A stretch of DNA of 34,297 bases, from positions 1 to 34,297 of the IMG/VR virus record IMGVR_UViG_3300010043_000002; one strand, 5' to 3'. The position numbers and the translations under genes are program-made. Numbering within the stretch: the stretch's first letter is position 1; every line of letters begins with the position of its first letter. Shown here piece after piece: positions 14,227-33,331 of the stretch. The stretch comes from a virus. Its lineage: Duplodnaviria > Caudoviricetes. The notes beneath the pieces are model-generated. The model saw only the letters and a list, made by a program, of their open reading frames with translations. It did no database searches and was not told the DNA's origin.

Positions 14227-14276
14227 TATTGTCAGCGATGAATAATCCTATCACACCAAACGCCAACTCGAAAAAC

Positions 14277-14492: not shown

Positions 14493-14706
14493 AACACTAC
14501 CCTATCGCGAGGTGAAGCGTCGGCTTGAGTCGGCGGGATTTTCCATCGTTAGCCAGAAGGGGAGTCATGTGAAATTTAAATTAGTCACTGCGTTTGGGGA
14601 GCGCATAGCAATCGTTCCCAAAAGAAAAAAAGGCGTTCTCGCCGGGACGATTGGCGGCATTCTCAAACAGACTGGCATATCGGTTGAAGAATGGGATGAG
14701 CTTTGA
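14482..14706 (+). CDS. hicA: HicA-family mRNA interferase toxin
   Basis: REV.RRLE.AGF.IVSQKGSHVKF...IVP...GTI.GILKQ.GIS.EEW. Confidence 0.88.
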   Translation: MPLKTLPYREVKRRLESAGFSIVSQKGSHVKFKLVTAFGERIAIVPKRKKGVLAGTIGGILKQTGISVEEWDEL

Positions 14707-18117: not shown

Positions 18118-18120
18118 TTT

Positions 18121-18357
18121 TCACGCCCCTTCGCCCTTCTCTTCTTCCCACGCCCCGGAGATCGCGAACGAATGCCCATCCTCGCAAACAACCAGCAAAC
18201 AAGCGACGATCGCGATCTTGAAGCCTCCGGGCGCCGCCCACATTCCGCCCTTACCGCAATCGGGACAGCGAACCATGAAGCGGTCGAGATAGACGGGCTT
18301 GATCGTGATCGTTTCGCCCGCGTCAAGGCCAAGTTGTTTGCGAAGCCATGCCATCAT
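18121..18357 (-). CDS. Small zinc-finger protein
   Basis: CPDC and C...CEDGH; coupled to neighbours. Confidence 0.6.
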   Translation of the reverse strand: MMAWLRKQLGLDAGETITIKPVYLDRFMVRCPDCGKGGMWAAPGGFKIAIVACLLVVCEDGHSFAISGAWEEEKGEGA

Positions 18358-19517
18358 CAGAAATTGAATACTTCGATAAGACTTAAATTTTGTGTCACAT
18401 CGTTATTAGCTACGCCAATTCCTATAGTATTTAAACTTATTATACTGGTTGCAAAATTAAATACACCGCCACTCGTAAAATCCGCGTCCCAGTTAATATT
18501 ACCCATAAAAGACCCTTTGCCTGTATTTGTCCCGGAAAGATCAAATTTAGATACACCTACGAACAGAACAAAAGATAATATAAAAGTAGTTGCACTTTTC
18601 CTGACAATATCTCCAGTCATTCGCCAACCACCTGCAACTGTAAAGGCAAGGGAAGGCGGCGTACCATTGATAGGGACATTAGGGCTGACATCAATTATGT
18701 TGCCTGCAATTCCAGAGCCTGCGCCCCCATTAAAAATAAGTCCAATTCCTTTTGTATTAGTGTTCGGCGCCAATCCACCCGCCATCGTATAATGGGCATA
18801 ATCACCATTATTCCTTAAAGAATTTGCGGGTAAAACGTCAAGATGTAAAACCGTCGGCCCACTGCCGACGTTTCCAACCGTCGTTGTATTCGGCGGGAAC
18901 GCGCGCGGGATGCCGCTGAAATTCCCTATCGGCACATTGACGCCATTGATCCGGGCCATCAATTGATTGGTCGCGCTGTTGTACCAGAGATCGCCATTGA
19001 CGGGCGTTAAGGGATCGGGCGCTACCTGACCTACGTTGACGCCGGGGTTATTCGCGCCGGGGTTGAATATTTGACGCGCGTCGTTCTGATAACTAAATGT
19101 CAAACCATCTTCAATCAGAATGCTAGTATCGTCTAGAGCGTCAGTTGTAGCCGACCCCCATATAGATATTGAGTTCAATCTCGGCGCCCGATTCTGTTCA
19201 TACAACACGCCCGTCACATCGCCCACTCGAAGAAAAGACTCCCCATTGAGAGATTGAAAAAACGAATTCCCAAAGCGTGAGGTAGCGTCAGGGATGAGCG
19301 CGAGCGCGCCCGTTCCCGGCGCCGCCACAGAAGGCGGGACGGGCGGCGCGTCGAAGCGGAGCGCCTTGTCCTCGATATTATTCGTGATCGTCGAAAACAG
19401 CGCGTCATTCGTGATCCCGTTCGATCCGTCAGGGCCGAGACCGGGCCGCACGATGTACATCTCGTCTGTCGGTTGTGGCGCTGTTAGTTGCGGGAGTTCA
19501 GTAAGTTTCGCTGACAT
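18357..19517 (-). CDS. Spike/fibre-like receptor-binding protein candidate
   Basis: N-terminal KLTELP motif, GDLWYNS..NQL motif, G/N/T-rich beta composition; low-GC C-terminal part. Confidence 0.6.
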   Translation of the reverse strand: MSAKLTELPQLTAPQPTDEMYIVRPGLGPDGSNGITNDALFSTITNNIEDKALRFDAPPVPPSVAAPGTGALALIPDATSRFGNSFFQSLNGESFLRVGDVTGVLYEQNRAPRLNSISIWGSATTDALDDTSILIEDGLTFSYQNDARQIFNPGANNPGVNVGQVAPDPLTPVNGDLWYNSATNQLMARINGVNVPIGNFSGIPRAFPPNTTTVGNVGSGPTVLHLDVLPANSLRNNGDYAHYTMAGGLAPNTNTKGIGLIFNGGAGSGIAGNIIDVSPNVPINGTPPSLAFTVAGGWRMTGDIVRKSATTFILSFVLFVGVSKFDLSGTNTGKGSFMGNINWDADFTSGGVFNFATSIISLNTIGIGVANNDVTQNLSLIEVFNF

Positions 19518-19529
19518 AATCAGTATTCG

Positions 19530-19721
19530 CTACGCTGCGCTTTCAAGCTGTAGAAAGTCATTTCCCGTAGTGTCCGATTCAAGCAATAGCCCATCAAAGC
19601 CGGAAGTGTCGGATTCAAGCAATAGAATATCGGGCGGCGGCGACGGCGCGCCCCCGCCGCCCGGCTCACGCTTGTGAAACCATAATTCATCCGGCTGATG
19701 TCGCCGTTCCCAAGAAAGCAT
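19530..19721 (-). CDS. Small virion protein with LLLESD repeats
   Basis: GAGG RBS; LLLESD x2 plus LQLES, immediately upstream of the fibre-like gene. Confidence 0.6.
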   Translation of the reverse strand: MLSWERRHQPDELWFHKREPGGGGAPSPPPDILLLESDTSGFDGLLLESDTTGNDFLQLESAA

Positions 19722-19745
19722 TCAGACCTCGAATAAGACACAGCA

Positions 19746-20261
19746 TTACGTGTTGCGCCCGAACGCCAGGACTTCACCGGAGCCGATTTTATCCGCGATT
19801 TGCGATGAGATGTGATAGGAATAAACCGTCGTTCGGATGAATCGCGGATTGGCGTCAGGCGGCGCCGAGAGTATGCCTTGTAAAGTGATAGTCTCGGCGC
19901 CTCTAGCAATCAATAATTCATCAATGTCCACAAGGAGATGCGCCGGAACAAGAGGCGTGATTGAATCGGTTGAATTGGCCACCCAACGCAACGACCCGCC
20001 CGGAGGCGGTTCAAAGTTGCGGAAGCCCGGCGCCCCCGCGACATCGGTGAACACGTAACACTCGACGCGCAGGATTACCAGATACGGCGAAGCTTCGGGA
20101 ATCTGATATGAGGCCAGCACTTGTTCAGTTGGCAAATCAATCCATGTAAGCCGATTGCCAAACCTGACGGGCTTGATCTGATGCCAAAGCGTGATGGCCT
20201 CATCGAGCGTCGCCGGATAACAGGCGTCGACAAGCTCTTTCATGTGTTTGTTGATCAGCAT
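19746..20261 (-). CDS. Putative minor capsid/vertex protein (beta-rich)
   Basis: 171 aa; alternating hydrophobic beta pattern; position in the structural operon. Confidence 0.55.
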   Translation of the reverse strand: MLINKHMKELVDACYPATLDEAITLWHQIKPVRFGNRLTWIDLPTEQVLASYQIPEASPYLVILRVECYVFTDVAGAPGFRNFEPPPGGSLRWVANSTDSITPLVPAHLLVDIDELLIARGAETITLQGILSAPPDANPRFIRTTVYSYHISSQIADKIGSGEVLAFGRNT

Positions 20262-20267
20262 AGCGAT

Positions 20268-21275
20268 TCAATACTCACACAGTCTCACACCTCTATAAGT
20301 GATAACGCTCGAATCGAGGGGAATGTCAAAGAAAGCGTTTTGCAATATCGTTTGGAGTCGATGGCGCGATTTCAATAGATAGGGTTTAGTGAATGGCCGT
20401 CCCGGATTAGCGTCTCCTTGATTCCCAAAGATCGCCTGAGACGCCGTAAGGGCTGGCGTCCAAAAAGTCTGCTCGCCAGTGTCGCTTATTTTAGCTAAAA
20501 GGCGTTTGGTTACGTCTGTCGATGCGTTGCTGAAGGCGTCATGTATTTCAACGTCGCAATCATCGGACATCGTGAATTGCGTTACCTGATTGGCGCCGTC
20601 AATCTGAAAGTCGTCAATCCTGCGTGATTGATATTCACCTACGGGCATCGTCGCAAACCAGGGGAGCCGAGAGCCTACAGCGATAATTTCGCCGTTCGGC
20701 ATCACGACGCGCGATGGCGCTTTGAATCCGGGCGTGTTGTTGATCAATTGAACGCCGACAAATGTGAGCTTAACCGTTATCACAACGGGCGGGCCTACAA
20801 GATTCGCATTCAATACCGTCCAATCGAGTTTTAGCTTTGAATGCGCTGGCAGAAAAAAAGCTTCTGGCAGTCGAACAATCGGCATGGGAAAATTAAAGCC
20901 CCGCAATCCTATTCCCGCAAGGGCGGCTAGTGGTATGTAACCGATCCTTGTAGGCGTGGCCCAGGGTATCCCGCTTTCCTCATGCGTGATGTTGACATAC
21001 GTCCAATTTTCGGTAGCCACAGTCACGGATATAAACCAGGCGCTTGCGCCAATGATCAACACATCATACTGATTCGGCCTTGTGACCACCGTAACAAACG
21101 GAATTTCACCAGGGCTTTTGACGAGATCGACGCTCGTTGTCAGATACAAGGGAACTTGAATCGGATAATGATCCGCTATCGCTTCGGCGTAAGGCGTCCA
21201 GAAGGGTGAAGCGCCCCATGATGAGCCTACGAAATCACCTGTGGGTATTGCGCTATTTGTGGCTAGTTGATTCAT
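20268..21275 (-). CDS. Putative minor capsid protein (two beta-rich halves)
   Basis: Start 21275 by ATGA overlap; both halves end in similar motifs (LPEAFFLP..S.L...LTFVGVQL / FTKPYLL..R..L...ITYRGVRL). Confidence 0.6.
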   Translation of the reverse strand: MNQLATNSAIPTGDFVGSSWGASPFWTPYAEAIADHYPIQVPLYLTTSVDLVKSPGEIPFVTVVTRPNQYDVLIIGASAWFISVTVATENWTYVNITHEESGIPWATPTRIGYIPLAALAGIGLRGFNFPMPIVRLPEAFFLPAHSKLKLDWTVLNANLVGPPVVITVKLTFVGVQLINNTPGFKAPSRVVMPNGEIIAVGSRLPWFATMPVGEYQSRRIDDFQIDGANQVTQFTMSDDCDVEIHDAFSNASTDVTKRLLAKISDTGEQTFWTPALTASQAIFGNQGDANPGRPFTKPYLLKSRHRLQTILQNAFFDIPLDSSVITYRGVRLCEY

Positions 21276-21760
21276 GATCCGAAACCTACGCTGTAATCCC
21301 ATCCGCCGTTGATAGGATTTGTCAGTCTCAACGCGCGCCATGTCCATAGCCCGCCAGTTACCGGGATCAGTTGAGAGGGAATGAGAGCGGAGTTCGTGAA
21401 TTGCAATGCCAGCCTGCCCTGTCTACGCACAAAGAAGGGTTGAACTAATGGCAACACTGGCAGGACTTGACCGGAGACGCCAGCTAAGGCGTTTACGGGA
21501 GTGTCCTGTGGAGTTGGATTGTCGTTCGACATCCACTCATATTGTGGCGACACCGAGCGAATGCGAACAAGCACGGCGGGATTATTGAAATTAACCGTTG
21601 CGGCAAAAAATAAAACGTCTTCGCTGATTTCGTTTGTAAAAACTATTGGAGGCCGTTCATTCGCAACGCCTGTAAAGCCTATCGAGATCGTGTCGATTAA
21701 TTCAAGATGCGTCGCGTAGCGATCTAAAATCTGATACACATACTTAGTGAAAAAATACAT
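21272..21760 (-). CDS. Putative minor capsid protein (beta-rich)
   Basis: LAG..G...PV.PL.QPFFV..QGRL.L.FT motif shared with 20268-21275. Confidence 0.6.
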   Translation of the reverse strand: MYFFTKYVYQILDRYATHLELIDTISIGFTGVANERPPIVFTNEISEDVLFFAATVNFNNPAVLVRIRSVSPQYEWMSNDNPTPQDTPVNALAGVSGQVLPVLPLVQPFFVRRQGRLALQFTNSALIPSQLIPVTGGLWTWRALRLTNPINGGWDYSVGFGS

Positions 21761-21772
21761 CTCTTCTCTCCA

Positions 21773-22024
21773 TCATCCGCGCAGCCCGGAGCCGCGCGCC
21801 ATGCCGTAAACCTGCATGACGAGTTCATGCGTATCCATCTCTTTGTCGTAAGCTTCTTTCTCTTCTTCGGTGAAATGGATTGAATGGCCGTTACTGAGCG
21901 CCACGTCATAGCCGGGCGTGATCCAAAACGCGAAGCGGCGCCAGCCCGATGTGTCGCGCTTCTTGATCGCGACGACGTTGAGTATCGGCAAGCGATATCG
22001 GCCTATCTGTTTGATCGGATTCAC
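21773..22024 (-). CDS. Hypothetical protein
   Basis: GAGAGG RBS, GTG start; 83 aa. Confidence 0.65.
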   Translation of the reverse strand: MNPIKQIGRYRLPILNVVAIKKRDTSGWRRFAFWITPGYDVALSNGHSIHFTEEEKEAYDKEMDTHELVMQVYGMARGSGLRG

Positions 22025-22041
22025 GGCGGCGCCTCTCTTTC

Positions 22042-22082
22042 AAAAAATCCCGCGAGGCGAGCGCGCGGCCCGCCCCGCGAGT
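22042..22082 (-). terminator. Intrinsic terminator downstream of the capsid candidate
   Basis: Minus strand: CTCGCGGGGCGGGC...GCTCGCCTCGCGGG followed by ATTTTTT. Confidence 0.7.
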
Positions 22083-22233
22083 TCGATCACTTGCTAGCTC
22101 TGGCTTTGAAAGAGATCACTAGCTGCTATCTATTGATCGCATAAACTTTGTGCTAAAATACAAAACGGGCCGAACAAGTGTTGACGCACCTGTCGGCCCT
22201 CACCACAAAATTTTCTGTGTAGGAGAAAATCTC

Positions 22234-23130
22234 ATGGCTAAGACCTATCGTGTCATTCCTGCGCTTACCGCGCAAGACATCAAACGTTTTGAAAAATTTG
22301 TTGATCGTTCGCCCGGCCAGGGGCCGAACGGAGATTGCCATCAATGGCAAGGCTTCAGAAATCCTAAAGCCGGTCATGGAACATTCGGTCTTCATGACCG
22401 CGCATATCTGGCGCATCGCGTCGCTTACTTGATCTATCACGGCGAGATCGACCCGACGCTTCAAATCCTTCACAAGTGCGGCAATGGCGCCTGCGTTCGC
22501 AAGGAGCATTTGCGGCAAGGCGATCAATCTGAAAATTCCTTTGATGGATGGCGCTTCAGAAGAGAGAACATTGCTTACACGCCCGATCCCGATCACGTTC
22601 CCATCGGCAGACGCAAACCGCAGACAGTCGAGGAGCGTTTTTGGTCGTTTGTTGATAAGACGCCGGGACAAGGGCCGAATGGCGATTGCTGGATATGGAC
22701 AGCGGGCAAGCGAAAAGGTTATGGCGCATTCAATCGGCGCAAGGGCGAGATGTGGGACGCCCATCGCTTCTCTTACTACCTTGCGCATGGCCGCATCAAT
22801 AAATCCAAAGTCCTTCTTCACATTTGCGACAATCGAGCATGCGTCAATCCCGCTCACCTTAAACAAGGCACGCAGGCTGACAACCTGCGCGATATGCGCG
22901 ATAAAGGCCGCGATGCGAGAGGCATTAAGCATGGCAGTAAGACTCATCCCGAATCCGTTGTCAGAGGTGAGCAAGTGATTAACGCAAAGCTCACCGAAGA
23001 CCAAGTAAGAGAGATCAGACGCCTTGCTGATAGCGGCGTGAGTCACGGCGATATTGCGAAGCAATATGGAATGAGCCGCGCCGCTATCAGCATGATTGCT
23101 GAAAGAAAACGATGGAAACACGTTGTATGA
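22234..23130 (+). CDS. Free-standing homing endonuclease with two tandem HNH domains and a C-terminal HTH
   Basis: Two repeats of FVD..PGQGPNGDC..W...AHR..Y...HG.I....LH.C.N.ACV...HL.QG...N; AKLTE.QV.EIR tail; AGGAG RBS. Confidence 0.9.
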   Translation: MAKTYRVIPALTAQDIKRFEKFVDRSPGQGPNGDCHQWQGFRNPKAGHGTFGLHDRAYLAHRVAYLIYHGEIDPTLQILHKCGNGACVRKEHLRQGDQSENSFDGWRFRRENIAYTPDPDHVPIGRRKPQTVEERFWSFVDKTPGQGPNGDCWIWTAGKRKGYGAFNRRKGEMWDAHRFSYYLAHGRINKSKVLLHICDNRACVNPAHLKQGTQADNLRDMRDKGRDARGIKHGSKTHPESVVRGEQVINAKLTEDQVREIRRLADSGVSHGDIAKQYGMSRAAISMIAERKRWKHVV

Positions 23131-23162
23131 CGTGCTTCATGCTCTATATGCGGTATGCACTG

Positions 23163-23945
23163 TTAACCCGTGACCGGCTGTATGCCGATCCCGGCGAGTC
23201 CAACCCTGACGCGGACAGTGACGCCGGCGCCGATAGTGAAAGGATTTTGTACTTTCATCCTGACGCCGAATTTGGTCAGCTCTGGCAGATGGCGCATGAC
23301 CGGCATCTGATATGCCCATCCAACGCCGTTGTTAACCCATCCGTCCGGCAGCGCGCCGACATCTCCGCTTATTCCGTAAGCGCCCGCCGGAAAGCGCCAA
23401 CCAGGGCCGTCCTCAAAATTCGTTTGATTGACGAAGAGAACGAAGTAAGTACTTTCCTGAAAGGCCCGCATGAGGTTGCCCATGTTCTCGACGGGAGCGG
23501 TGATCCCCGGATTGAGGGCGAGGTTTAGGAAGTTCCCCGTCGTTTGAAGCGTGGCGTCTGGCGAAGCGACGATCGCGAACTGCACACTGATTTGCCAAAT
23601 CAACGCTTCGTAACCTTTGGCGAGCTGGCCGCCGCCGACTATCCACGGCGAGACGTCGATCTCTTGTTTCGAGTATGGCGTTCCGGCGATGAACAAGCTT
23701 TGCTGTTGGCCGAGCGCGTTTTGATAGAACACGAAATCGCGAACGGGCATCGCTCCCGGATCTATTCGCAGCGTGTCGTAGAGTTCGACGCCGGTTATTG
23801 AAGCGAGACGCCCGCCGTTGGCGGCGATGAATTGCGCGATCTGTTGATAATAGCTCGGATTGATTTGATCGAGCGTGGTAGGCAATCCCGGCATCGACGT
23901 ATTCGTGAAGCCGAAATTCGGAGGATTATCATAGAATCCTGGCAT
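23163..23945 (-). CDS. Candidate major capsid protein (jelly-roll-like, 260 aa)
   Basis: Strong RBS, beta-rich (LYDTLRI...FVFY...FGVRMKV...VRVRVGLAG), follows the core-protein gene, has a downstream terminator; no HK97 features seen; fold not verified. Confidence 0.55.
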   Translation of the reverse strand: MPGFYDNPPNFGFTNTSMPGLPTTLDQINPSYYQQIAQFIAANGGRLASITGVELYDTLRIDPGAMPVRDFVFYQNALGQQQSLFIAGTPYSKQEIDVSPWIVGGGQLAKGYEALIWQISVQFAIVASPDATLQTTGNFLNLALNPGITAPVENMGNLMRAFQESTYFVLFVNQTNFEDGPGWRFPAGAYGISGDVGALPDGWVNNGVGWAYQMPVMRHLPELTKFGVRMKVQNPFTIGAGVTVRVRVGLAGIGIQPVTG

Positions 23946-24034
23946 GGTGATTTTCTCCCATTCTTTCTTGAAGCTGTTTACCCTTCACGCGAGCGGCCCC
24001 ATGCCAAAGCCCTCGCGCGACTATCGAATTATCC

Positions 24035-24748
24035 TTAGTGGCCCCACACTCCGGGGCGCACGCCGAAACCCTGCATGCCATTGGCCGGATGCGCTGGCGC
24101 TGGCGGCGGCGGAACGATCAAGGGCGGTTGCCCTGTAGTGACGCCGATTCCCGCCATCCCTCGCGGGCGATAGCCAGACCACGGCCCCGACATCGTCGGC
24201 GCCGCCGCCGCAGTCACGCCTGCGAGCGTGCGAGATACAAACGGTTGAATGATCTGTATCACTGCGGTAGACAGGCCGAGAATGATCGTCGGCTGCGCGA
24301 ATCGTCTCGTCGCTCCGAACATATGGAACAATTTTCCGAGGCCCCAACCTGTCAAGGCTGTGATCGCGGGCGCGTTGAATTGGCCGAGCGGCAGAAAGCC
24401 TCCGATCAGTCTATTGACGAGCGGTTGCGCGATACCGAGGCCGAACCCGCCTATAGCGAAATTGAATATCTCGCCGCCTGATACCGCAGGATTGCGATGA
24501 TGGCGGCGATGGTGTCGCCGTCTAATCGGATTGGTACGGCGCGCTCGCGCGAATACTCCATAGCGATGATGGCGCCTCGTTCTGCGGCGGCGCCTGACAG
24601 GGTTGACCGGATTGAGAGGATTTTGGCGCCGAGCGTGAATGCGGCGCCTGCGTCTACGTGCTGGCATACTTCGTCTCCTTTTCGGATTGACCAACGCCAA
24701 AACCGAGGGCGCCGGATTGATTACTCTTCTACGGACAAGGCGAGTCAT
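24035..24748 (-). CDS. Arg-rich (protamine-like) N-terminus with hydrophobic segments; putative core/membrane protein
   Basis: GGAG RBS before 24748; poly-Arg/His with repeated NP, then hydrophobic helices and a Pro-rich tail. Confidence 0.8.
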   Translation of the reverse strand: MTRLVRRRVINPAPSVLALVNPKRRRSMPARRRRRRIHARRQNPLNPVNPVRRRRRTRRHHRYGVFARARRTNPIRRRHHRRHHRNPAVSGGEIFNFAIGGFGLGIAQPLVNRLIGGFLPLGQFNAPAITALTGWGLGKLFHMFGATRRFAQPTIILGLSTAVIQIIQPFVSRTLAGVTAAAAPTMSGPWSGYRPRGMAGIGVTTGQPPLIVPPPPAPAHPANGMQGFGVRPGVWGH

Positions 24749-24756
24749 ATAATTGA

Positions 24757-24807
24757 CTCCTTCTGCGTCATTGCGGTGAATAGCGGCGGCGACGCGATCC
24801 GACCGCA
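24757..24807 (-). repeat. Structured 5'-leader repeat, copy 2
   Basis: TGCGGTCGGATCGCGTCGCCGCCGCTA...CGCAATGACGCAGAAGGAG on the minus strand; similar to 25585-25633. Confidence 0.75.
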
Positions 24808-24927
24808 TAAAGTCATTAAACTGTTACAATTGAGGCTGATTTGTGATAGGATAGGGACAGCTTGGACGGAAGCGGCTAACTTTCGCCCAAGCCTAACCAC
24901 ATCATTCGTAATGGAGATACGAACAGC

Positions 24928-25554
24928 ATGGCTAAGTTCACTATACTCACTGAAAAACAATGCACCAAATGCAAAAAGATCAAGCCTGTTGAACTTTTTG
25001 AACCGCTTTACAAAAAGCCCGGCAAATTCACTTCTCATTGTCGTGACTGCCGTAATCGTGAAAGCTCTGCACGCTATAGACGCAAAAGAGCTGCTATGCC
25101 TAAGCGTCAGCGCATTGATACTAAGTGGAAGAAATGCGCCAGATGTAAAGAGGTAAAACTCCGATCTCAATTTCGTCGGAGAACTGATGGCCGACCCCAC
25201 CTTGTACAACCATATTGCAATGATTGTTTTCAAGGGACGCGCAGAGAAATCGGTAAGCGTTGGAGAGCGACGCCAAAAGGCAAGCGCAGAATGAGCCATT
25301 ACCATCTCAAGCGAGTGTTTGGCATTTCGATAGAAGACTTCGAAGTAATTCTTGATTGTCAGAATAACCAATGCCTGATATGCCTGAATCCATTTTCTAA
25401 AGAGAAAGGACGAAGGCCCAGTGTTGATCACTGCCACGCTACCGGAGTCATTCGAGGGGTCTTGTGCGCGTTCTGCAACGGCATGCTCGGCAAGGCGAAA
25501 GATGATCCCGCCTTTTTTAAGCGCGCTATTGAGTATTTGAAACGCGGTGGATAG
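24928..25554 (+). CDS. Endonuclease VII-family homing endonuclease with two N-terminal zinc modules
   Basis: KQCTKCK..KP...F repeats; Q...CLIC...VDHCH.TG.IRGVLC..CN..LG...DD......AIEYL. Confidence 0.9.
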   Translation: MAKFTILTEKQCTKCKKIKPVELFEPLYKKPGKFTSHCRDCRNRESSARYRRKRAAMPKRQRIDTKWKKCARCKEVKLRSQFRRRTDGRPHLVQPYCNDCFQGTRREIGKRWRATPKGKRRMSHYHLKRVFGISIEDFEVILDCQNNQCLICLNPFSKEKGRRPSVDHCHATGVIRGVLCAFCNGMLGKAKDDPAFFKRAIEYLKRGG

Positions 25555-25584
25555 TTTCCGTTTGACAAGCGGCATTGCTTATCT

Positions 25585-25633
25585 CTCTTTCTTGCGTCTT
25601 TGCGTTTAGCGGGCGGCGACGCGACCGACCGCA
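25585..25633 (-). repeat. Structured 5'-leader repeat, copy 1
   Basis: TGCGGTCGGTCGCGTCGCCGCCCGCTAAACGCAAAGACGCAAGAAAGAG on the minus strand. Confidence 0.75.
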
Positions 25634-25643
25634 AGCTCGTTAC

Positions 25644-26411
25644 TCACGCGCCGAGTGTCTTCTTGGCGCGCTCGAAATATTTTTCCCTATCGGCAAGCCC
25701 TGTATAACCGCCGTTGATCTTGTGCGTGATCTGTTTGAAATCGAGAGCGTCGGCAAGGTCATTGAGGCCATGCGATTTCCAGAAAGCGGCGGCGATGGTA
25801 AATGCATGCTCGGCCTTTTCGGCTAGCTCTGGATTCGAGATCAGATCGACGCCCAGAAGCTCGCCATACTTTTTGTAGTTCTCGCGGCCCGTGATCTGTA
25901 TCGGGCCTCGCCCCTTGAAGCGATGACCATCTCCCTTTTCAGTGTTGCCGAGATTCTTTGACAGTTCGGTGTGCGGTTCATACTTCTTTTGCTGATCGGT
26001 CGGCCCCCATATCTCAGCCATGTATTTCAGTTCGGCGGATTCGTGCGCGATCTGCGCGAGAAAGGCGGCGGCGCGTAAGGGCGTATTGATTTCGTGATCG
26101 ATCATCGCCTTGACGATGTGCGGCAGATATTCATCGCGCTTCGCGTCATGCAAATTCGGCATGATCGCCTTCAAATGAATGTCGGTTATGACGAAGGCAG
26201 GAGGCCCCGCATGACTGGTAGACTCCTGCCCCGGCGTCACGACGCCCACCTCGTCAGGCGCCGCGATCACAGCGACAACCGTATCGAAATCGAGATCATC
26301 AATTGCGGCGCCGCTCTCATCGGCTTGAATGAGCTTGGCGGCCCGCGCGCCCGATGACGCCGTGAACAGTCTTTCCGCTATTTGTTTTGCTTCGTCGCTT
26401 GTCATGGTCAA
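25644..26411 (-). CDS. Glycoside hydrolase family 19 (chitinase-like) endolysin
   Basis: AAFLAQIAHES, DG.RFKGRGPIQITGRENY, IT.KINGG..GL.DR. Confidence 0.92.
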   Translation of the reverse strand: MTMTSDEAKQIAERLFTASSGARAAKLIQADESGAAIDDLDFDTVVAVIAAPDEVGVVTPGQESTSHAGPPAFVITDIHLKAIMPNLHDAKRDEYLPHIVKAMIDHEINTPLRAAAFLAQIAHESAELKYMAEIWGPTDQQKKYEPHTELSKNLGNTEKGDGHRFKGRGPIQITGRENYKKYGELLGVDLISNPELAEKAEHAFTIAAAFWKSHGLNDLADALDFKQITHKINGGYTGLADREKYFERAKKTLGA

Positions 26412-27967
26412 TTTTCTAAACCTCGCGGCCCTATCCGATAGGCGCCGCCGCGAAATACAAGTCCGCCCTCGCCGTCCGCATGCAGCGTCGGCCGGCGTCC
26501 ATCCTCCTCGCCAACGTGATGGAAAAATATTGTTGGTTGCGTATGTCCTAAATGCTTTTTGACATCCAAATATTCAACCTTTGACACTTCGCCGAAGTTG
26601 CGTTTAGGGCCATCGTATAAGGGCGCGCCGTTGACCGATCCCAAATGCAATTTGCCTTTCGTATCACTACAGAGCCATGCCGAGCCGGCGACTGGTTTGA
26701 TAGTGCCTTCTTCCGTCGTGATGCTGACAAGCTTGCCGAGCTTCGCGAGACCCTGCGGAGTTCCATGTGGGAACCAGAGATCCCGCTCTCCAGAAACCGC
26801 GCCGGCGAACTCGCGACGGATCTCGGCGGGTGAAGGATTCCATTTCTTGTAGACTCGCGGCGCCGAGCTTTGACGACGACGCTTGCGCTCTGCGGCCACA
26901 CGTCGCCGGCCGCGCCCGCGCCATCCCATCGTGTCTGTAGCGCGGCGCGCAGTCGAATATTCATGGCGCATGCCTCTGCGCGTCGGATTGCGGCGCCTGG
27001 CGCTCGACGTGCGGCGCGTGGCTTTCTTCGTAGACTTGACTACTCGACTCGCGCGCTTGACGGTTTTCCGCTTAGGCGCCGCTCTCTTGACTGTCCGCCT
27101 GGCGCTCGCTTTCTTTGTTCTTTTCTTGGCGGACTTCTTGCGCTTGCGTCCTTCGCCAACCCGGCCCGGATCGTAGTCATATGACGCGCGTATGGGATGG
27201 AACACGCCCATATCATCGACAAAGCCGGCCGCCACATTGCTGCGCCGCTTGACGGTTCTCTTTGCGGCCCGGCGCGGCGCCGCTCTCTTTACCGATCTCT
27301 TAGGCGCCGCTCTTTTCACTGTCCGCCTGGCCGCCGCTCGCTTGACTGTCTTCTTGACTCTCTTCTTGACGGTTCTCTTTCGCTTGCGCGATTCGCCGGC
27401 CCTTCCGGGATCGTAGTCGTATGACGCGCGTATGGGATGGAACACGCCCATATCATCGACAAAGCCGGCCGCCACATTGCGTCGTCGTCTTCTCACTGTG
27501 TTTCGCTCCCTTTTCTCGTAGATATAACCAGTGTTGAGATCGAGGAAATCTTTTCCGCTGAGCTTCTGCGTCCCTTTTCCTTTCTTGTAATAGCGAATGC
27601 CGTATTTCCAGCCCTTGGGCGTTGACTCGGCTTGCTTCTTGATAACCAGATCGAAATATTTCGTCGTCCCGTCAGGATTCTTTTCGACCGAATAGCGATA
27701 GATATTTTTTGGGCCTGGCACTTTCCCTCTCACCTTTCGAATCGCAGAGCCGCGAGTAAACGCCGAGACAGTCTCACTGACGGTCTTTGTGTATTTCGGG
27801 ATCGCTTCAACCGTGTAAGACGGATTCGCCCTGGCCCGCACAGTCGCGGCCGCGATCCGTTTGGCTTCGCGCAATGAGGCGCCGCGTTCAAGTTCCGTTC
27901 GCAGGATGTGTTCATACTGGCGGTTCTGTTTGGCCGTCGCGCCCGCCAAGTGTTTTCGTCTTGGCAT
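26408..27967 (-). CDS. Highly basic modular DNA-condensing protein (histone H1-like KRAA repeats)
   Basis: RTVKRAAP repeats, duplicated NVAAGFVDDMGVFHPIRASYDYDPGR, globular C-terminal domain. Confidence 0.8.
   Translation of the reverse strand: MPRRKHLAGATAKQNRQYEHILRTELERGASLREAKRIAAATVRARANPSYTVEAIPKYTKTVSETVSAFTRGSAIRKVRGKVPGPKNIYRYSVEKNPDGTTKYFDLVIKKQAESTPKGWKYGIRYYKKGKGTQKLSGKDFLDLNTGYIYEKRERNTVRRRRRNVAAGFVDDMGVFHPIRASYDYDPGRAGESRKRKRTVKKRVKKTVKRAAARRTVKRAAPKRSVKRAAPRRAAKRTVKRRSNVAAGFVDDMGVFHPIRASYDYDPGRVGEGRKRKKSAKKRTKKASARRTVKRAAPKRKTVKRASRVVKSTKKATRRTSSARRRNPTRRGMRHEYSTARRATDTMGWRGRGRRRVAAERKRRRQSSAPRVYKKWNPSPAEIRREFAGAVSGERDLWFPHGTPQGLAKLGKLVSITTEEGTIKPVAGSAWLCSDTKGKLHLGSVNGAPLYDGPKRNFGEVSKVEYLDVKKHLGHTQPTIFFHHVGEEDGRRPTLHADGEGGLVFRGGAYRIGPRGLEN
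27168..27480. repeat. Intragenic tandem duplication, 240-bp period
   Basis: 27168-27240 and 27408-27480 are identical except for one synonymous base. Confidence 0.9.
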
Positions 27968-28443
27968 TACTTCTTTCTCCCGAACATCATGAAAAGCAGA
28001 AAGGCGCCGCCGCCTAGCACGACTAACTGCGCCGTGTTTTTAGAGACGCCAAAAGATGTAGCGATAGAATCGAAAAATCCCGTCTCTGTCCCGGTTGCGG
28101 TCGCCGGGACATAGGGCTGGAAAGCCAATTGAGCGGCGGCGCCGTTGATCGGAATGCCCGCCATCTGAAGGGCGCTTACCAATTGGCTGGCGAAGTCGCC
28201 GCCATTCGGCCAACTAGCCGTCGCCGTCCCGTCCACTCGCACGTAGGGCGTAGTGGCGCCGGTTGGAATCGTCGTCGTCACGTCATAGGCCCATCCGCCA
28301 TTGACTATCGCGTGAGTCACGGCGGCGGGATCAATGGTCGCGCCGGTCTCTATCGGGAATTGAAAGGCGAAAACCGAACCGCCCGCGAGCGCGCCCTGCG
28401 TCGCTACAGCGCCCATCAATTGGCGATAATGTGGATATGTCAT
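27967..28443 (-). CDS. Membrane-anchored virion protein, paralog 3
   Basis: LMGA.ATQG.LAGGS; GFFD.IATS.GV...TAQL; C-terminal TM followed by RKK. Confidence 0.8.
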   Translation of the reverse strand: MTYPHYRQLMGAVATQGALAGGSVFAFQFPIETGATIDPAAVTHAIVNGGWAYDVTTTIPTGATTPYVRVDGTATASWPNGGDFASQLVSALQMAGIPINGAAAQLAFQPYVPATATGTETGFFDSIATSFGVSKNTAQLVVLGGGAFLLFMMFGRKK

Positions 28444-28997
28444 TTCTTCCCCTTTCCGCCGCCTGTGGCCATCAGCACGATGAATAAACCGAATCCGCCG
28501 ATGATGAGTAATTGCGCCGTCCCGGTAGTGACGCCGAGAGAAGTAGCGATCTGATCAAAAAAGCCCTTTGGAGGCGGCTGCGTCGTCACTACGGGGGATT
28601 GCGTCCCTCCGGTCGGCGCGTATGGGACGAAAGTCAATTGCGCCGTTGACGCGTCAATCGGAAATCCAGCCACCGCGATGGCGTCGGCCAGGATGTTCGC
28701 GAAATCCTGCCCGCTCGAATAAGACGTAACCGCCGTGCCGGTCACTCGCACCTGCGGCGGCGCGCTCGCTCCCGCCGCTCCCATCACATAAGAGCCGAGA
28801 GGAACAGTGATCCAACCCGCGCTCTCAAGCGCGGGCGCTATGGCCGCTGGATCGAAGAGGAGCGTACCGTCTGCGGCGACGCTATCAGCGACGGCCATAA
28901 AATCGAATTGAATCGGAGAACCGCCCGCCAGTATTCCTTGCGTCGATGTCGCGCCTAATAGCCTTCTTGGGTAGCCGTAGCCGTAAAGACGTTTCAT
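28440..28997 (-). CDS. Membrane-anchored virion protein, paralog 2
   Basis: Start 28997 (TGATG overlap); clearly similar to 27967-28443. Confidence 0.8.
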   Translation of the reverse strand: MKRLYGYGYPRRLLGATSTQGILAGGSPIQFDFMAVADSVAADGTLLFDPAAIAPALESAGWITVPLGSYVMGAAGASAPPQVRVTGTAVTSYSSGQDFANILADAIAVAGFPIDASTAQLTFVPYAPTGGTQSPVVTTQPPPKGFFDQIATSLGVTTGTAQLLIIGGFGLFIVLMATGGGKGKK

Positions 28998-29638
28998 CAC
29001 TTTTTCACCAAAGCTAAAACAACTAGCAGGCCGACGCCTCCGACGATCAGGCCGCCCACTGTGCCCGCCGCGAGACCGCCTATAGGCGACTTGATGCCGA
29101 ACAGGCATGCGAAGTAATCGCCAAGGCCCATTGCGCTAAAATCGCATTGGGCAGGCGGTTGATTTTGATTCTGATTCGCCGCTTGATTCGTATATGGCGT
29201 GCCCTGCAATTGCGATCCCGGCGCCGTCCCATAAGGCGCGAATCGAAATTGAATCGTTGAATAGTCAATCGGATAACCGGCGTTTTTTATCGCTTGGTAG
29301 ATCTCCTCAGCGAACACCGTTGCGGACGGGTAAGAGGTTGTCGCATAGCCTGTAACCACGATGTACGGATTGACCACGCCTGCGGCCTTGTAGACATGAG
29401 TCGTATAGCTAAGGCCCAACTCCTCTTGAAGTAGGCGCTCGATTTCCGAAGGATCATACAACTTGAAAACGGTGTCGATGATTCCGGCGTTATAGCCGAA
29501 CTCAAAATAATTTCCGCCCGCCATCTCGCCTAAATTTTGCGGTATCGCGCCGAGCAGACCGGCGAGACCCCATGCCGGTTCAAATGCATTGCATCCGTCA
29601 TATCCACGCTGGCATCCCGCGCAGCATCCGCCGTTCAT
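28997..29638 (-). CDS. Membrane-anchored virion protein, paralog 1
   Basis: GGAGG RBS, ATGA overlap; LLGA...GEMAGG..FEF, PYIVVTG.ATTSY; C-terminal TM followed by KK. Confidence 0.8.
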   Translation of the reverse strand: MNGGCCAGCQRGYDGCNAFEPAWGLAGLLGAIPQNLGEMAGGNYFEFGYNAGIIDTVFKLYDPSEIERLLQEELGLSYTTHVYKAAGVVNPYIVVTGYATTSYPSATVFAEEIYQAIKNAGYPIDYSTIQFRFAPYGTAPGSQLQGTPYTNQAANQNQNQPPAQCDFSAMGLGDYFACLFGIKSPIGGLAAGTVGGLIVGGVGLLVVLALVKK

Positions 29639-30831
29639 GACGCCCTCCTGTGCCTGATGGTCGTTGCGTGGTCTCCATTGCCGCCGCTCAGGACAAGGAT
29701 GGCCAGGAGGCCGAGCCATAACCACCAGGGGATTTCGTCGAAGAATGACGCGCCCGATGGATTCGGCCCGCACACGCCGTTAAGCGTATTGAATGTGTAT
29801 CCGACCTGCGGACACTGCGGAATCAATTCACATCTGCGAGTCGCCGGATTCGACCAATAACCGACCGGACATCCGCCTCCCGCTACGCATGCCTCTGTCG
29901 TCGGATTGAAAACAGAGCCTGGATAGAGTTGCGCGCAGTTCGGAATCGGCATGCACCGCTGATATCGACGTGATTGATACTGCCCGGATGGGCATCCTTG
30001 TTGCGACGATGGCGGCGGTTGCTGTGGCGGTTTCGGCGCGGCGGCGGCCTGTTGCTGTTGCTGCGTCGTCGCTGGCGGGAAGGGCACGCATGAGTATGGA
30101 TCGTTTATCGGATGATAGTAGCCAGTCGGACAATAACCGGGAAGATTCGACCCGTAGGTCATGGGCGCGCTCGGCGCAGGCCCGAAGTCGATCAGAGGCG
30201 CCGGGAAAGTAAAATCCGGCAGCGGCGGAGTGTAGGGTATGGAGGGCGGAGTGGTTATATCCGGTAATGTGGGATTCCCCGGCTCCGTCTCCATCGGGAA
30301 TGTAAATTCTTGACCCGGAGGCACGGCGCCGAACTCTTCTTGAGGGCCATACGTCGGCCATCCTAAATCCGGTAACTGGTAGTAATCGGGCGGGACGGTT
30401 ACATCGGGCGTCGTTATATCGGGCGGCGCGGGCGGCGCGGGCGCGTATGGATCATATCCCGGATAACCTGTCGGTATGTCGTAGCCGAAACCGGGATCAT
30501 ATGAGGCGTCATACCCATAGTCATAGTATCCGGGATCGTAGAGAAAATCAGAGTATCCGCCGTAGTCATAACCGCCGCCGCCCCCGCCGCCAAAGTCGCC
30601 GTAATCGTAATAGTCATCGATAGCCAGAAGGCCGAGGCCCCGCGCGCGGTCGCGACTCCCTTTGTAGTATCTCGTCATCGCGCCCAACCCTCCGTTATGG
30701 CCAGAGGCGAAAAGCCAATCGGCGCCCGCGCGCTCGCATCTCTGCTCGCCCTCATTCCAGCGAAGCCCATGCGAGGCGCAATCCGGCAAAGAGCGCCAGC
30801 GGTTTTCCCTTTTGTCGAAATAGCGAGACAC
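29635..30831 (-). CDS. Tyr/Gly/Pro-rich protein with Cys repeats and a C-terminal membrane anchor
   Basis: CPTGYY, CPSGQY, CPVGYW, CPQVGYTF repeats; IPWWLWLGLLAILVL. Confidence 0.8.
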   Translation of the reverse strand: MSRYFDKRENRWRSLPDCASHGLRWNEGEQRCERAGADWLFASGHNGGLGAMTRYYKGSRDRARGLGLLAIDDYYDYGDFGGGGGGGYDYGGYSDFLYDPGYYDYGYDASYDPGFGYDIPTGYPGYDPYAPAPPAPPDITTPDVTVPPDYYQLPDLGWPTYGPQEEFGAVPPGQEFTFPMETEPGNPTLPDITTPPSIPYTPPLPDFTFPAPLIDFGPAPSAPMTYGSNLPGYCPTGYYHPINDPYSCVPFPPATTQQQQQAAAAPKPPQQPPPSSQQGCPSGQYQSRRYQRCMPIPNCAQLYPGSVFNPTTEACVAGGGCPVGYWSNPATRRCELIPQCPQVGYTFNTLNGVCGPNPSGASFFDEIPWWLWLGLLAILVLSGGNGDHATTIRHRRAS

Positions 30832-30835
30832 ACTG

Positions 30836-31117
30836 TCAATGCTTCCTTCCGCTGAAGATCAGCACTAGCGCGGCGATCCCTATTAGCCATAGCCCGGAGT
30901 TGCCAGTGAGAGAAAAGCCCGGTTGCCCTTGCCCGCTCGTTGCGTATGGATTCGTCTGATATGGCGTCCCGCCGCCGTATGGCGCATATCCCGGCGGGTA
31001 TCCAACATTGGTTGGCGCGTAGACATTCGTTCCCGGAGGGTAATAACCGGATTCGGCGACTTGAGCCGTTCGCGCCGCCGCTTGTATCGTATTGTTCGCG
31101 AAGTCCAACCAATCCAT
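30836..31117 (-). CDS. Small membrane-anchored protein
   Basis: GAGGAG RBS; Y/P/G-rich; C-terminal TM followed by RKH. Confidence 0.8.
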   Translation of the reverse strand: MDWLDFANNTIQAAARTAQVAESGYYPPGTNVYAPTNVGYPPGYAPYGGGTPYQTNPYATSGQGQPGFSLTGNSGLWLIGIAALVLIFSGRKH

Positions 31118-31127
31118 TTTTTACTCC

Positions 31128-31736
31128 TCAAAAAATCTCTTGCGATACTTCGAAGCCGCCTGTCTGTAGCGGTTGCCGATAGCCCATCGGCTCGCCGCTT
31201 GCGACCGCATCAAGCGCGATCCATGTTCCGTCTTCAAGCTCGGCCTCGACGTAGACATGCGAAGCCTCCCGGCCATCTACCCATTGAGCGACGAAGCGCG
31301 ATCGGATGCCGAGAGCGGCGAGCAGAGTCGCGAGCAGGACAGAGAGCGAGACGCAATCGCCCTCGCCTTTGAGCATTGTTCTTTTTGCGTCTTGCAATGT
31401 TTGTTCATTGAGCGGATGAGCGACGTATTGAATTTGATGCGCCGCGAAATCGAACAGGGCCGCTATCACATCCATGCGGGCATGTTGTGTTGCGCCGGAT
31501 GTGATGGCATGTGCGGCCCTGATGTTGAACTCGTCTTGATAACCGGAATATTCGGGCGCGAGACCGATCAGCACGGCGTCGCGCATGGCCGAGAGCGTGT
31601 CAAAGGTCGCGTCGTCGCCGGCCGGCAGCGCTCTATATTCGGTTGGATAGCTGATGGCGACGGGCGCGGGTGGTAGCGAGCTATTTGCATATTGAACGCC
31701 GCTTGCCGCCGTTTTAGTCGCGCCTTGTGTCGCCAT
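31128..31736 (-). CDS. Transglutaminase-like (papain-fold) Cys-His-Asp enzyme; putative protease
   Basis: GDCVSLSVLLATLL..LGI.SRFV, SHVYVE, WIALD. Confidence 0.85.
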   Translation of the reverse strand: MATQGATKTAASGVQYANSSLPPAPVAISYPTEYRALPAGDDATFDTLSAMRDAVLIGLAPEYSGYQDEFNIRAAHAITSGATQHARMDVIAALFDFAAHQIQYVAHPLNEQTLQDAKRTMLKGEGDCVSLSVLLATLLAALGIRSRFVAQWVDGREASHVYVEAELEDGTWIALDAVASGEPMGYRQPLQTGGFEVSQEIF

Positions 31737-31963: not shown

Positions 31964-33331
31964 ATGCCGAGAAGAAAAACAACCACGAAAGCCGAGACGA
32001 GAAGAAGGGCGCCCGCTGAAGTCGAGATCCTACCGGCAGAAGATCCGCCGCCGCTGCCAGGCCGCAAGACGCTGGTCGAGGCCGAGCATACGATCAAGTA
32101 TTCCGCGCCCGTGCCCGTAACCGTCGATCAGACGGGAGAAGATATGCTGATCGATGGCGTCGAGTATGAAGAGCAAGAGAGAGCCAGGCGCCGCAAGAAG
32201 ACATCGAAAGACGAGCGCGACGAGCTAAAGCGAGAAATGGACAAGCTCGGCGTCGCTTCGGTTTCTCGCCTGAAATTGTCCATCGACAAATACAGGCATA
32301 GTGAGTCTGACGATTCGGGCACGATGGCAGAAAAGGACTATTGCACTAAATATCCCGTCACTAAAGATCATATCTTGAATGAAGACTATCTCGACGTCGC
32401 GCGCAAGTATGGCCCCGGCCGATTCTGGTTTACGCTGCGAATGGATAATCAGATCGTCAGGCAATGGGAACGCAAGATCAATAACGCCCTGACGGCGCCG
32501 ATCATTCAATCAGTCAACCCGGCAGATCCGAACGCGCCGCAAGTGATCACGTATCCGATGCCGGACGCCAACGGCCATCAACCTGTCGGCCAGATGACCT
32601 GGCAAGAAATGATCAAGATGCAAGACTCGCTTTTTGAGCGAAAGCTGAAAGAGTTGAAATTATTTCGCGAGTCAATAGGCGTTGACATAGGGCAGCAATC
32701 GGCGCAAGCGGCGGTAACAGATCCGAAAATCGCAGCGCTGCAATTGATCGCCGACAACCCGGACGTCATGGAAAGGATCGGCAAAGGGATCGCGTCGACA
32801 GTACTCGGCGCGAAGCATGGCGACGGCGATCCTTGGGCTGAGGTCGCGATGGAAGCGGTTAAGAGCGGCCAGGCCGCGAACATGCTACGCTCGGCCATAG
32901 ATGCAATATTCAATGGGATCAATGGACTATTCCCTAAGCCGCAGAACGGCCCGCTCGCCGGCGTTCAACCGATGGCTCAAGCGCCGGCGCCGCAACCTGC
33001 GCCGGCCGAGGCGGCGCCCGTTTCGCAAGAGAGCGCCGCGCAGCATATGACGCTCGCGCCATCTGACGCGCTGATCATTCAATTGATCGGAGCGCTTGAG
33101 AGGAACGCCCCGCTCAAAGAGGCGCAAACCATTATCAATGTCGCCGTCTATCGCCATCCAGAGCTTGACGAATCAATCGAACAATTGCTCAACATGTCGG
33201 TAGACGAGATCATGGTCATGCTCACGGCCTATCATTCGAAAGTCGCCGAGATCCCACACGCTAAGCAATGGCTTGAGACATTGATCGGATCGCTCGCGGC
33301 GCCGAGCGATGGCCAGGAGGCGCCGCAATGA
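31964..33331 (+). CDS. Hypothetical large helical protein
   Basis: AAGGAG RBS; 455 aa; no recognisable motif. Confidence 0.8.
   Translation: MPRRKTTTKAETRRRAPAEVEILPAEDPPPLPGRKTLVEAEHTIKYSAPVPVTVDQTGEDMLIDGVEYEEQERARRRKKTSKDERDELKREMDKLGVASVSRLKLSIDKYRHSESDDSGTMAEKDYCTKYPVTKDHILNEDYLDVARKYGPGRFWFTLRMDNQIVRQWERKINNALTAPIIQSVNPADPNAPQVITYPMPDANGHQPVGQMTWQEMIKMQDSLFERKLKELKLFRESIGVDIGQQSAQAAVTDPKIAALQLIADNPDVMERIGKGIASTVLGAKHGDGDPWAEVAMEAVKSGQAANMLRSAIDAIFNGINGLFPKPQNGPLAGVQPMAQAPAPQPAPAEAAPVSQESAAQHMTLAPSDALIIQLIGALERNAPLKEAQTIINVAVYRHPELDESIEQLLNMSVDEIMVMLTAYHSKVAEIPHAKQWLETLIGSLAAPSDGQEAPQ

What the first reader, a model, noticed from the sequence alone, without database searches (positions are those of the whole stretch)
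24035..27967. (R/K)xNP-punctuated basic proteins: candidate polyprotein processing signal
Seen: the 519-aa protein is divided into modules by RANP, EKNP, RRNV, RSNV, RRNP and KWNP. The Arg-rich protein has INP, VNP, RQNPLNPVNP, RTNP and HRNP, the last just before its hydrophobic domain. The internal 240-bp duplication copies one N-delimited module. Inference: NP marks cleavage or docking sites that release protamine/H1-like peptides for genome condensation, reminiscent of adenovirus core-protein maturation but not something I know from bacterial viruses.
Basis: partly seen in the sequence, partly recalled or inferred. Interest (0 to 1): 0.75.

Follow-up and report, generated by a model that had tools for sequence, protein, structure and literature searches.

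The report
Asparagine-jointed, cassette-swapping viral core polyprotein
An uncultured bacterial virus with a predicted tailless capsid encodes a basic protein built from small modules that its relatives swap at asparagine joints, and a neighbouring viral protease likely cuts it at those joints to release peptides that would pack the DNA and carry a variable cargo into the host.

Summary
The window is a complete 34-kb temperate virus with a predicted single-jelly-roll capsid protein. The 519-aa protein is one of 79 homologues that share a 142-aa end domain but carry shuffled 40-85-aa modules: about 43 recurrent families, 76 distinct architectures. Motif-blind homology breakpoints fall at NP or (R/K)N joints (56-61% versus 19% expected). 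Near-identical relatives swap modules at the Asn codons, and whole stand-alone phage genes are captured between joints. At nine flank-defined joints Asn is nearly invariant (241 of 244), Pro follows in 143, and Asp/Ser/Thr never substitute. Codon use argues against a DNA-level site. This reads best as an Asn-specific cleavage signal. The likely enzyme is the transglutaminase-fold protein 31128-31736 (Cys-His-Asp in 120 of 120 homologues), but no cleavage is shown, and a second Gly-based motif competes for that enzyme. The cargo is not only protamine-like: some modules are acidic or captured early genes. Ten literature searches found no description. The scan noted a similar NP-segmented core protein in another genome (e1-6053368).

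The parts
26408..27967 (-). 519-aa basic modular polyprotein: six Asn-delimited modules (residues 1-48, 49-97, 98-164, 165-244, 245-327, 328-377; net charge +7 to +25) followed by the conserved end domain
27824..27826 (-). joint Asn48 (RAN|P)
27677..27679 (-). joint Asn97 (EKN|P)
27476..27502 (-). double joint Asn156 (ERN|T) and Asn164 (RRN|V) around a short Arg linker
27236..27238 (-). joint Asn244 (RSN|V), start of the duplicated module
26987..26989 (-). joint Asn327 (RRN|P)
26837..26839 (-). joint Asn377 (KWN|P) before the end domain; NP at this position in 62 of 79 homologues
27111..27487 (.). tandem duplication of one module: two 137-nt copies at 85% identity, 240 nt apart
26411..26836 (-). 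conserved 142-aa C-terminal domain; confident beta-rich model with no fold match; invariant Tyr and His; occurs as a stand-alone half-size gene in distant relatives
24035..24748 (-). Arg-rich core protein with NP-punctuated basic arm and hydrophobic domain. Likely start Met21 (24748, AAGGAG upstream); the open frame extends to 24808
24665..24680 (-). internal Shine-Dalgarno sequence and Met48: likely second, nested start of the Arg-rich protein
   Evidence: 23 of 32 homologues versus 16 of 783 background Met codons
24491..24493 (-). Asn106|Pro107 between the basic arm and the hydrophobic domain; invariant in 35 of 35 aligned homologues
31128..31736 (-). transglutaminase-like (PF01841) protein with Cys128-His160-Asp176; candidate maturation protease; first gene of the structural operon
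23163..23945 (-). predicted single-jelly-roll major capsid protein
24928..25554 (+). endonuclease VII (probable homing endonuclease) inserted in the interval; not part of the system
25644..26411 (-). GH19 endolysin inserted between the two basic genes; not part of the system

Best explanation
The 519-aa protein is a chain of small modules that relatives swap at asparagine joints, and it is likely cut after those asparagines during virion assembly by the virus's transglutaminase-fold cysteine protein, which would free basic DNA-binding peptides and captured small proteins inside a predicted tailless capsid. Shown: modular architecture, Asn joints, swapping at the joints, capture of whole genes, an intact triad, conserved gene order. 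Inferred: the polyprotein and the membrane-anchored Arg-rich protein co-condense with the circular genome (no packaging ATPase was found); the protease then cleaves at x-N|P or (R/K)-N|x, detaching the Arg-rich arm from its membrane anchor at Asn106 and breaking the polyprotein into units that enter the next host with the DNA. Recombination through the 6-10 nt microhomology of repeated Asn-Pro codons would shuffle the units, and selection would keep swaps that leave whole units between joints.
For: NP 287 versus 34 expected before the end domain in 79 homologues. With every Asn and following Pro masked, homology ends lie within 6 residues of a joint in 61% of 332 starts and 56% of 452 ends versus 19% at random; other Asn residues give 1.1x and 0.9x. 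About 43 module families, 76 of 79 architectures distinct, 27 of 282 co-occurring family pairs seen in both orders. Three near-identical pairs (L001/L023, L079/L080, L075/L076) break at the Asn(-Pro) codons. P1 is Asn in 241 of 244 flank-defined joints, P1' is Pro in 143, and Asp, Ser or Thr never replace Asn; DP, SP and TP are 1.15x, 0.65x and 1.55x expected. Asn away from joints is depleted (1.5% versus 3.65% in 22 control genes) while Gln is not. Whole genes sit between joints: phrog_9437 (positions 3-98 of 98), DUF1391 (3-48 of 48), and a 70%-identical copy of a 60-aa early gene of the same virus, start Met right after the Asn. The triad is invariant in 120 of 120 listed homologues; the nearest solved sequences are peptide:N-glycanases, Asn-directed enzymes, though weakly (E 0.007). 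All 18 protease-bearing viral contigs examined carry an Arg-rich NP gene nearby.
Against: No cleavage product was observed. Co-occurrence is among core genes of one lineage, so it is not independent evidence, and the end domain co-occurs too. A second, Gly-based motif (leaders ending LMG|A or LLG|A on membrane proteins; MxG[ILVFM]G 49 versus 5.4 expected in the Arg-rich family) is an equally plausible substrate for the same enzyme. NP occurs inside the end domain in 17 of 79 proteins, at about chance level (19 versus 14.6), including one RRNP loop insertion; a purely sequence-driven protease would nick these. NP is also enriched in the capsid and lytic transglycosylase proteins (98 versus 41; 24 versus 7.5), where it may be an ordinary turn. 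The homologues are related and the flank patterns were written after viewing the sequences, so the counts overstate independence.
Confidence: 0.5

Rival explanations
1. The proteins are cut after Asn, but not by the transglutaminase-fold enzyme: the catalyst is the conserved end domain, Asn side-chain cyclisation as in asparagine peptide lyases, or a host protease, while the transglutaminase-fold enzyme trims the Gly-based leaders of membrane proteins or cross-links them.
For: The end domain has invariant Tyr, His and Asp, ends in Asn in 66 of 79 proteins and accompanies the NP proteins in distant viruses. Asn-Pro self-cleavage is documented for RsgI and reovirus-type capsid proteins (PMC10328401, passages). 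Gly-based leaders exist as alternative substrates.
Against: The end domain has no invariant Cys or Ser in the wider alignment. The documented self-cleavage sites lie inside folded domains, whereas these joints lie in variable basic linkers. Many joints have a non-Pro P1' (101 of 244), where uncatalysed chemistry would favour deamidation (own knowledge).
Confidence: 0.2
2. NP and (R/K)N are uncut docking or packaging signals that tether each module to the capsid, the membrane or the end domain; modules were once separate genes with an M-(basic)-NP leader, and fusions left the leaders at the boundaries.
For: Stand-alone genes in relatives begin with short M-(basic)-NP leaders. A hydrophobic-strand-NP class of site is conserved, and the Arg-rich protein's leader motif reappears next to the end domain in some polyproteins. 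Tandem NPxNPxNP repeats three residues apart look more like multivalent binding than useful cuts. The nested second start already yields a form without the leader.
Against: Only one residue is invariant and P1' is tolerant, which is little information for a binding motif. One signal would suffice for a fused protein, yet joints are kept at module boundaries throughout and Asn is avoided elsewhere.
Confidence: 0.2
3. NP(K/R)(K/R) is a DNA minor-groove-binding turn like the SPKK motif of sperm histones, and breakpoints fall there only through microhomology.
For: Lys or Arg are the commonest residues after NP (44%, 53% and 57% at the next three positions). SPK(K/R) motifs are known in sperm histones (PMC9903204, search listing and start of abstract).
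Against: SP is not enriched (0.65x), Ser, Thr and Asp never replace the Asn, and Pro is dispensable at many joints. Joints also precede acidic and hydrophobic modules.
Confidence: 0.06
4. The motif is the protein shadow of a DNA recombination site used by the virus's integrase or resolvase, as in integron cassettes or shufflons.
For: Breakpoints map to these codons; AAT is used in about 75% of NP sites; the genome encodes a tyrosine integrase.
Against: The same AAT bias before Pro holds in other structural genes (72%, 232 of 324). All eight Asn-Pro codon pairs occur at the end-domain joint, and close relatives differ synonymously at joints.
Confidence: 0.02

Closest known systems
Polyvalent proteins of phages and conjugative elements (Iyer et al. 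2017, PMC5512222; passages read)
   Same: Many small domains in varied combinations on one chain, proposed to be packaged and delivered with the DNA and to be proteolytically processed; MutS-I domains occur in both (one weak case here).
   Different: Those are mostly large proteins of portal-terminase phages and plasmids, with processing ascribed to zincin-like MPTase domains. The passages read give no repeated junction motif. Here units are 40-85 aa, mostly basic, and delimited by an explicit Asn joint in a virus with a predicted jelly-roll capsid.
Adenovirus core proteins VII and mu matured by the adenovirus protease; ASFV core polyproteins (recalled)
   Same: Arg-rich core precursors cut by a virus-encoded cysteine protease during maturation.
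   Different: Those enzymes belong to another fold class and cut at Gly-based motifs (recalled); here the candidate is transglutaminase-fold and the joint is Asn. Their precursors do not swap cassettes.
Prohead-protease processing of packaged proteins in T4 and SPN3US/phiKZ-type phages (PMC10052503, abstract; T4 internal proteins recalled)
   Same: Multi-site maturation cleavage of proteins that are packaged and ejected; variable small internal proteins with a removable leader.
   Different: Tailed phages with a packaging motor; Glu-directed proteases (recalled); cargo on separate genes, not a shuffled polyprotein.
Portogloboviridae, Sulfolobus polyhedral virus 1 (PMC8459092, whole text)
   Same: Single-jelly-roll capsid (best structural match, Z 8.0, rmsd 3.7, 152 aligned), circular dsDNA, nucleoprotein core inside a membrane as the likely architecture.
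   Different: Archaeal host and about 20 kb; this virus is 34 kb with an integrase and peptidoglycan hydrolases. The profile mentions no protease or polyprotein. Sequence identity of the capsid match is 5%.
Asn-Pro self-cleaving proteins (RsgI, reovirus-type mu1/VP5; PMC10328401, passages)
   Same: Scission of an Asn-Pro bond that depends on the Asn side chain.
   Different: One site inside a folded domain, versus many sites in variable linkers here.

Membership tests
Transglutaminase-like superfamily (PF01841), gene 31128-31736 | Profile match above the curated cut-off | tested here: met
   54.9 bits versus 23, E 1.2e-14
Transglutaminase-like superfamily (PF01841), gene 31128-31736 | Cys-His-Asp catalytic triad | tested here: met
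   C128, H160, D176 in 15 of 15 and 120 of 120 listed homologues
Transglutaminase-like superfamily (PF01841), gene 31128-31736 | Protease activity with Asn specificity | not testable with these tools
   needs an assay
Polyvalent proteins | Many domains in diverse, shuffled architectures | tested here: met
   76 of 79 architectures distinct
Polyvalent proteins | Zincin-like MPTase or the characteristic domain set | tested here: inconclusive
   no such family listed in Pfam scans of 70 and 23 members; one weak MutS_I match
Polyvalent proteins | Conjugative element or portal-terminase phage context | tested here: inconclusive
   no terminase or portal match among 31 window proteins scanned; capsid protein predicted as a jelly roll; the paper says 'most', not all
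Adenovirus-type core maturation | Adenain-type protease | tested here: not met
   the candidate enzyme is PF01841, nearest solved sequences are PNGases
Adenovirus-type core maturation | Gly-based cleavage consensus at the module joints (consensus recalled) | tested here: not met
   joints are Asn in 241 of 244; a Gly-based motif occurs elsewhere
Portogloboviridae | Single-jelly-roll capsid protein | tested here: met
   model pLDDT 79.5; top match SPV1 capsid Z 8.0, rmsd 3.7, 152 aligned, next Z 7.0 is another jelly roll; the fold is supported, kinship is not shown
Portogloboviridae | Circular dsDNA genome of about 20 kb | tested here: inconclusive
   123-nt terminal repeat fits a circle, but 34.3 kb
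Portogloboviridae | Host in Sulfolobales | tested here: not met
   GH19 and SLT peptidoglycan hydrolases and bacterial bin labels on relatives point to a bacterial host
Portogloboviridae | Internal membrane and nucleoprotein coil | not testable with these tools
   several membrane-anchored structural genes are consistent
Asparagine peptide lyases | Self-cleavage by Asn cyclisation within a folded domain | not testable with these tools
   Asn invariance fits; linker location does not

The most novel reading that the evidence does not exclude
A widespread, apparently undescribed group of bacterial single-jelly-roll viruses builds its core without a packaging motor and loads it through a cassette polyprotein. 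Small genes, including the virus's own early genes, are captured between Asn joints, co-condensed with the DNA, released by a new Asn-specific transglutaminase-fold protease and delivered as a hypervariable ready-made payload at infection.
Probability: 0.35. Interest if true: 0.88.

Novelty: new variant of a known kind. Interest (0 to 1): 0.74.

Why it matters
It would show core-polyprotein maturation, familiar from eukaryotic DNA viruses, in bacterial viruses, with a different enzyme fold and an Asn-specific cut. It would also give a visible evolutionary mechanism, gene capture and swapping at a one-residue joint, for diversifying what a virion carries into the cell. The cut sites are predicted to the residue and the candidate enzyme is a 202-aa soluble protein, so the claim can be tested by co-expression without culturing the virus. 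A compact protease that cuts before proline after Asn would be a useful reagent.

Tried and rejected
DNA-level recombination site: rejected by codon use. SPKK-like turn: largely rejected. Fold search of the end domain gave no clear match in the PDB or BFVD (best Z 3.8), and the atlas look-alikes were weak; this shows no absence of relatives. One complex prediction (protease, end domain and Arg-rich leader peptide) returned no answer and is not used. No Pox_A32 packaging ATPase match in 0 of 5 complete genomes searched, and the only Walker A motif in a convincing gene is in the AAA_25 helicase-like protein; a divergent ATPase is not excluded. No match for capsid, protease or end domain among 50,697 GenBank phage records. 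Three wider alignments (A3, A5, A8) were too divergent to scan the viral contigs, so distant viruses are sampled by only three contigs (L093, L098, L106), and no independent loss of the protease could be tested. No RNA holder was listed; contigs of two DNA runs showed no informative joints. Internal starts after polyprotein joints were not convincingly enriched (3 of 25 versus 8 of 261). The capsid protein's own Asn29-Pro30 is conserved in close relatives but not in distant ones, so it is not counted as a site. NCBIfam named none of the window's modules. No tRNAs and no promoter signal above chance.
Full report
Context. The window is a complete virus record of 34,297 nt with a 123-nt terminal repeat. 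It encodes a tyrosine integrase, an AAA_25 helicase-like protein, a methylase, an SLT and a GH19 peptidoglycan hydrolase. The 260-aa gene 23163-23945 has 166 relatives among 819 candidates and 87 clusters at 50% identity. Its model (pLDDT 79.5) is a single jelly roll whose best match is the SPV1 capsid protein (Z 8.0, rmsd 3.7, 152 aligned). That Z supports the fold, not kinship. Gene order is conserved in the longer loci: protease-like gene, membrane proteins, large basic protein, Arg-rich protein, capsid protein. Relatives carry bin labels Blastocatellia and Pseudomonadota, so the host is bacterial but not identified. The best-holding public run is a soil metagenome, possibly the source sample.

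Observation. Every motif listed is present, and NP exceeds chance in both proteins (4 versus 0.65, p=0.0024; 7 versus 1.32, p=5e-5). The 240-nt duplication copies one module. The strict (R/K)xNP pattern fits only 5 of the 11 NP sites.

The large protein is a cassette array. A search with its last 144 residues gave 79 proteins of 286-831 aa among 324 candidates (only lengths 285-909 were searched). NP sits at the domain boundary in 62 of 79. Upstream of it NP occurs 287 times against 34 expected and RN 292 against 102. To avoid circularity I masked every Asn and following Pro, down-weighted Lys/Arg and aligned all pairs (2,876 local alignments). Of 784 endpoint clusters, 61% of 332 starts and 56% of 452 ends lie within 6 residues of NP or (R/K)N, against 19% for random positions; other Asn residues and eight other residue classes give 0.5-1.6x. 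Splitting at the motif gives 641 segments, about 43 families shared by two or more proteins, 68 singletons, 76 distinct architectures and 27 of 282 family pairs in both orders (this split uses the motif and over-splits some modules, so the numbers are approximate). Of eight gene pairs aligned at DNA level, the three nearly identical ones break at the Asn(-Pro) codons: a 99% block in L001/L023 begins and ends there, L079/L080 diverge right after an Asn codon, and L075 has a 231-nt module that L076 lacks between two Gln-Asn-Pro codon runs.

Modules are autonomous proteins. A whole phrog_9437 protein (profile 3-98 of 98, E 1e-29) and DUF1391 (3-48 of 48) lie between joints; DUF6926 (below cut-off) and MutS_I (just above) are weaker cases. 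An N-terminal winged-helix module matches TrmB weakly in 13 of 70. Among 509 segments searched against other ORFs, one matched a stand-alone 60-aa gene in the early region of the same virus (39 of 56 identical), with its Met directly after the joint Asn. Some modules in distant relatives are acidic. The cargo is therefore mostly basic (family means 0.13-0.60 Lys+Arg) but not simply protamine-like.

The Arg-rich protein. In 40 of 47 non-redundant homologues with the basic part present, NP occurs 209 times against 20 expected, and 81% of 259 Asn are followed by Pro. The NP before the hydrophobic domain is invariant in the 35 full-length sequences aligned.

What the joint is. It is a protein signal: AAT bias before Pro is the same in other structural genes, and all eight codon pairs occur at one homologous joint. 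At nine joints defined by flanking residues, P1 is Asn in 241 of 244 and P1' is Pro in 143; Asp, Ser and Thr never substitute. I wrote these patterns after viewing the sequences, one fixes P1', and some joints are counted twice. Away from joints Asn is depleted (290 of 18,993 versus 130 of 3,566 in 22 control genes) while Gln is not. A single invariant residue, a tolerant next residue and avoidance elsewhere is the pattern expected of a protease P1 site, and not of a turn or cap. This step is inference.

The enzyme. Gene 31128-31736 matches PF01841, has at least 566 relatives and keeps Cys128, His160 and Asp176 in all 120 listed. Its nearest solved sequences are peptide:N-glycanases, weakly. 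All 13 viral contigs found through the end domain also carry it, and all 18 protease-bearing viral contigs examined have an Arg-rich NP gene, including 16-, 17- and 80-kb viruses. Against the assignment: these are core genes of one lineage; the end domain, a confident model with no fold match, also persists as a half-size stand-alone gene in L093 and L098 and by eye in L106; and a Gly-based motif offers a second substrate. NP inside the end domain in 17 of 79 proteins and NP enrichment in the capsid and SLT proteins show that not every NP is a site.

Comparison and novelty. It works most like the polyvalent proteins of Iyer et al. (PMC5512222, passages) crossed with adenovirus-type core maturation (recalled), but fails the adenovirus tests on enzyme and motif and is not a portoglobovirus (PMC8459092, whole text). 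Maturation cleavage of packaged proteins is known in tailed phages (PMC10052503, abstract), and Asn-Pro scission in self-cleaving proteins (PMC10328401, passages). Ten searches of the open library (listings only unless named) found no description of this virus group or motif. Yutin et al. 2018 (PMC5894146, term search of the main text) and bioRxiv 10.1101/2025.08.03.668216 (passages) do not mention transglutaminase or arginine-rich proteins. I did not read supplements, and subscription papers are not covered, so a prior description cannot be excluded.

Verdict. Real, conserved and unusually clean. Cleavage after Asn about 0.7; by the transglutaminase-fold enzyme about 0.5; uncut docking about 0.2. 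New variant of a known kind, interest 0.74.

Noticed in passing
window 17524-18117, 27967-28443, 28440-29108, 28997-29773, 29635-30831 (all -): Membrane-anchored structural proteins share N-terminal leaders ending in (L/M)(L/M)G|A/D or GLG|A; the Arg-rich family has C-terminal MxG[ILVFM]G repeats (49 versus 5.4 expected) that resemble the recalled adenovirus protease consensus. Possibly a second processing or membrane-targeting motif.
   Followed up: partly
window 26411-26836; L093 9288-9560; L098 8789-9061; L106 11548-11967: The end domain looks like an internal duplication of a half-size YxHxF protein that stands alone in distant viruses (hhalign of the halves: probability 49%); no known fold matched.
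   Followed up: partly
window 16970-31736: Whole structural module of an apparently undescribed group of bacterial single-jelly-roll viruses (about 16-80 kb in the contigs seen) with no packaging ATPase found and no match among GenBank phages.
   Followed up: partly
window 19746-21760 (-): Three conserved genes after the capsid gene (162, 359, 171 aa) with cross-matching profiles; likely paralogous minor jelly-roll or vertex proteins.
   Followed up: no
window 31964-33331 (+): Conserved 455-aa gene of no known family, divergent from the protease gene in nearly all long loci.
   Followed up: no
window 27824-27967 (-): The first module resembles, from recall, small ChaB-like or 'plasmid stabilization' DNA-binding proteins; Pfam and NCBIfam gave no match.
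   Followed up: partly
window 22150-23130 and 24928-25554 (+): Two endonuclease genes (double HNH; endonuclease VII) inserted against the direction of the structural operon on either side of the capsid gene.
   Followed up: no
window 14473-14706 and 14124-14492 (+): Small gene pair that looks, from recall, like a HicA/HicB toxin-antitoxin module; not scanned.
   Followed up: no
window 15328-16017 (-): Serine-recombinase-like ORF (recalled pattern) in addition to the tyrosine integrase; not scanned.
   Followed up: no
L106 9917-11551: In an 80-kb relative the transglutaminase-like domain is fused to a long, apparently membrane-anchored extension.
   Followed up: no
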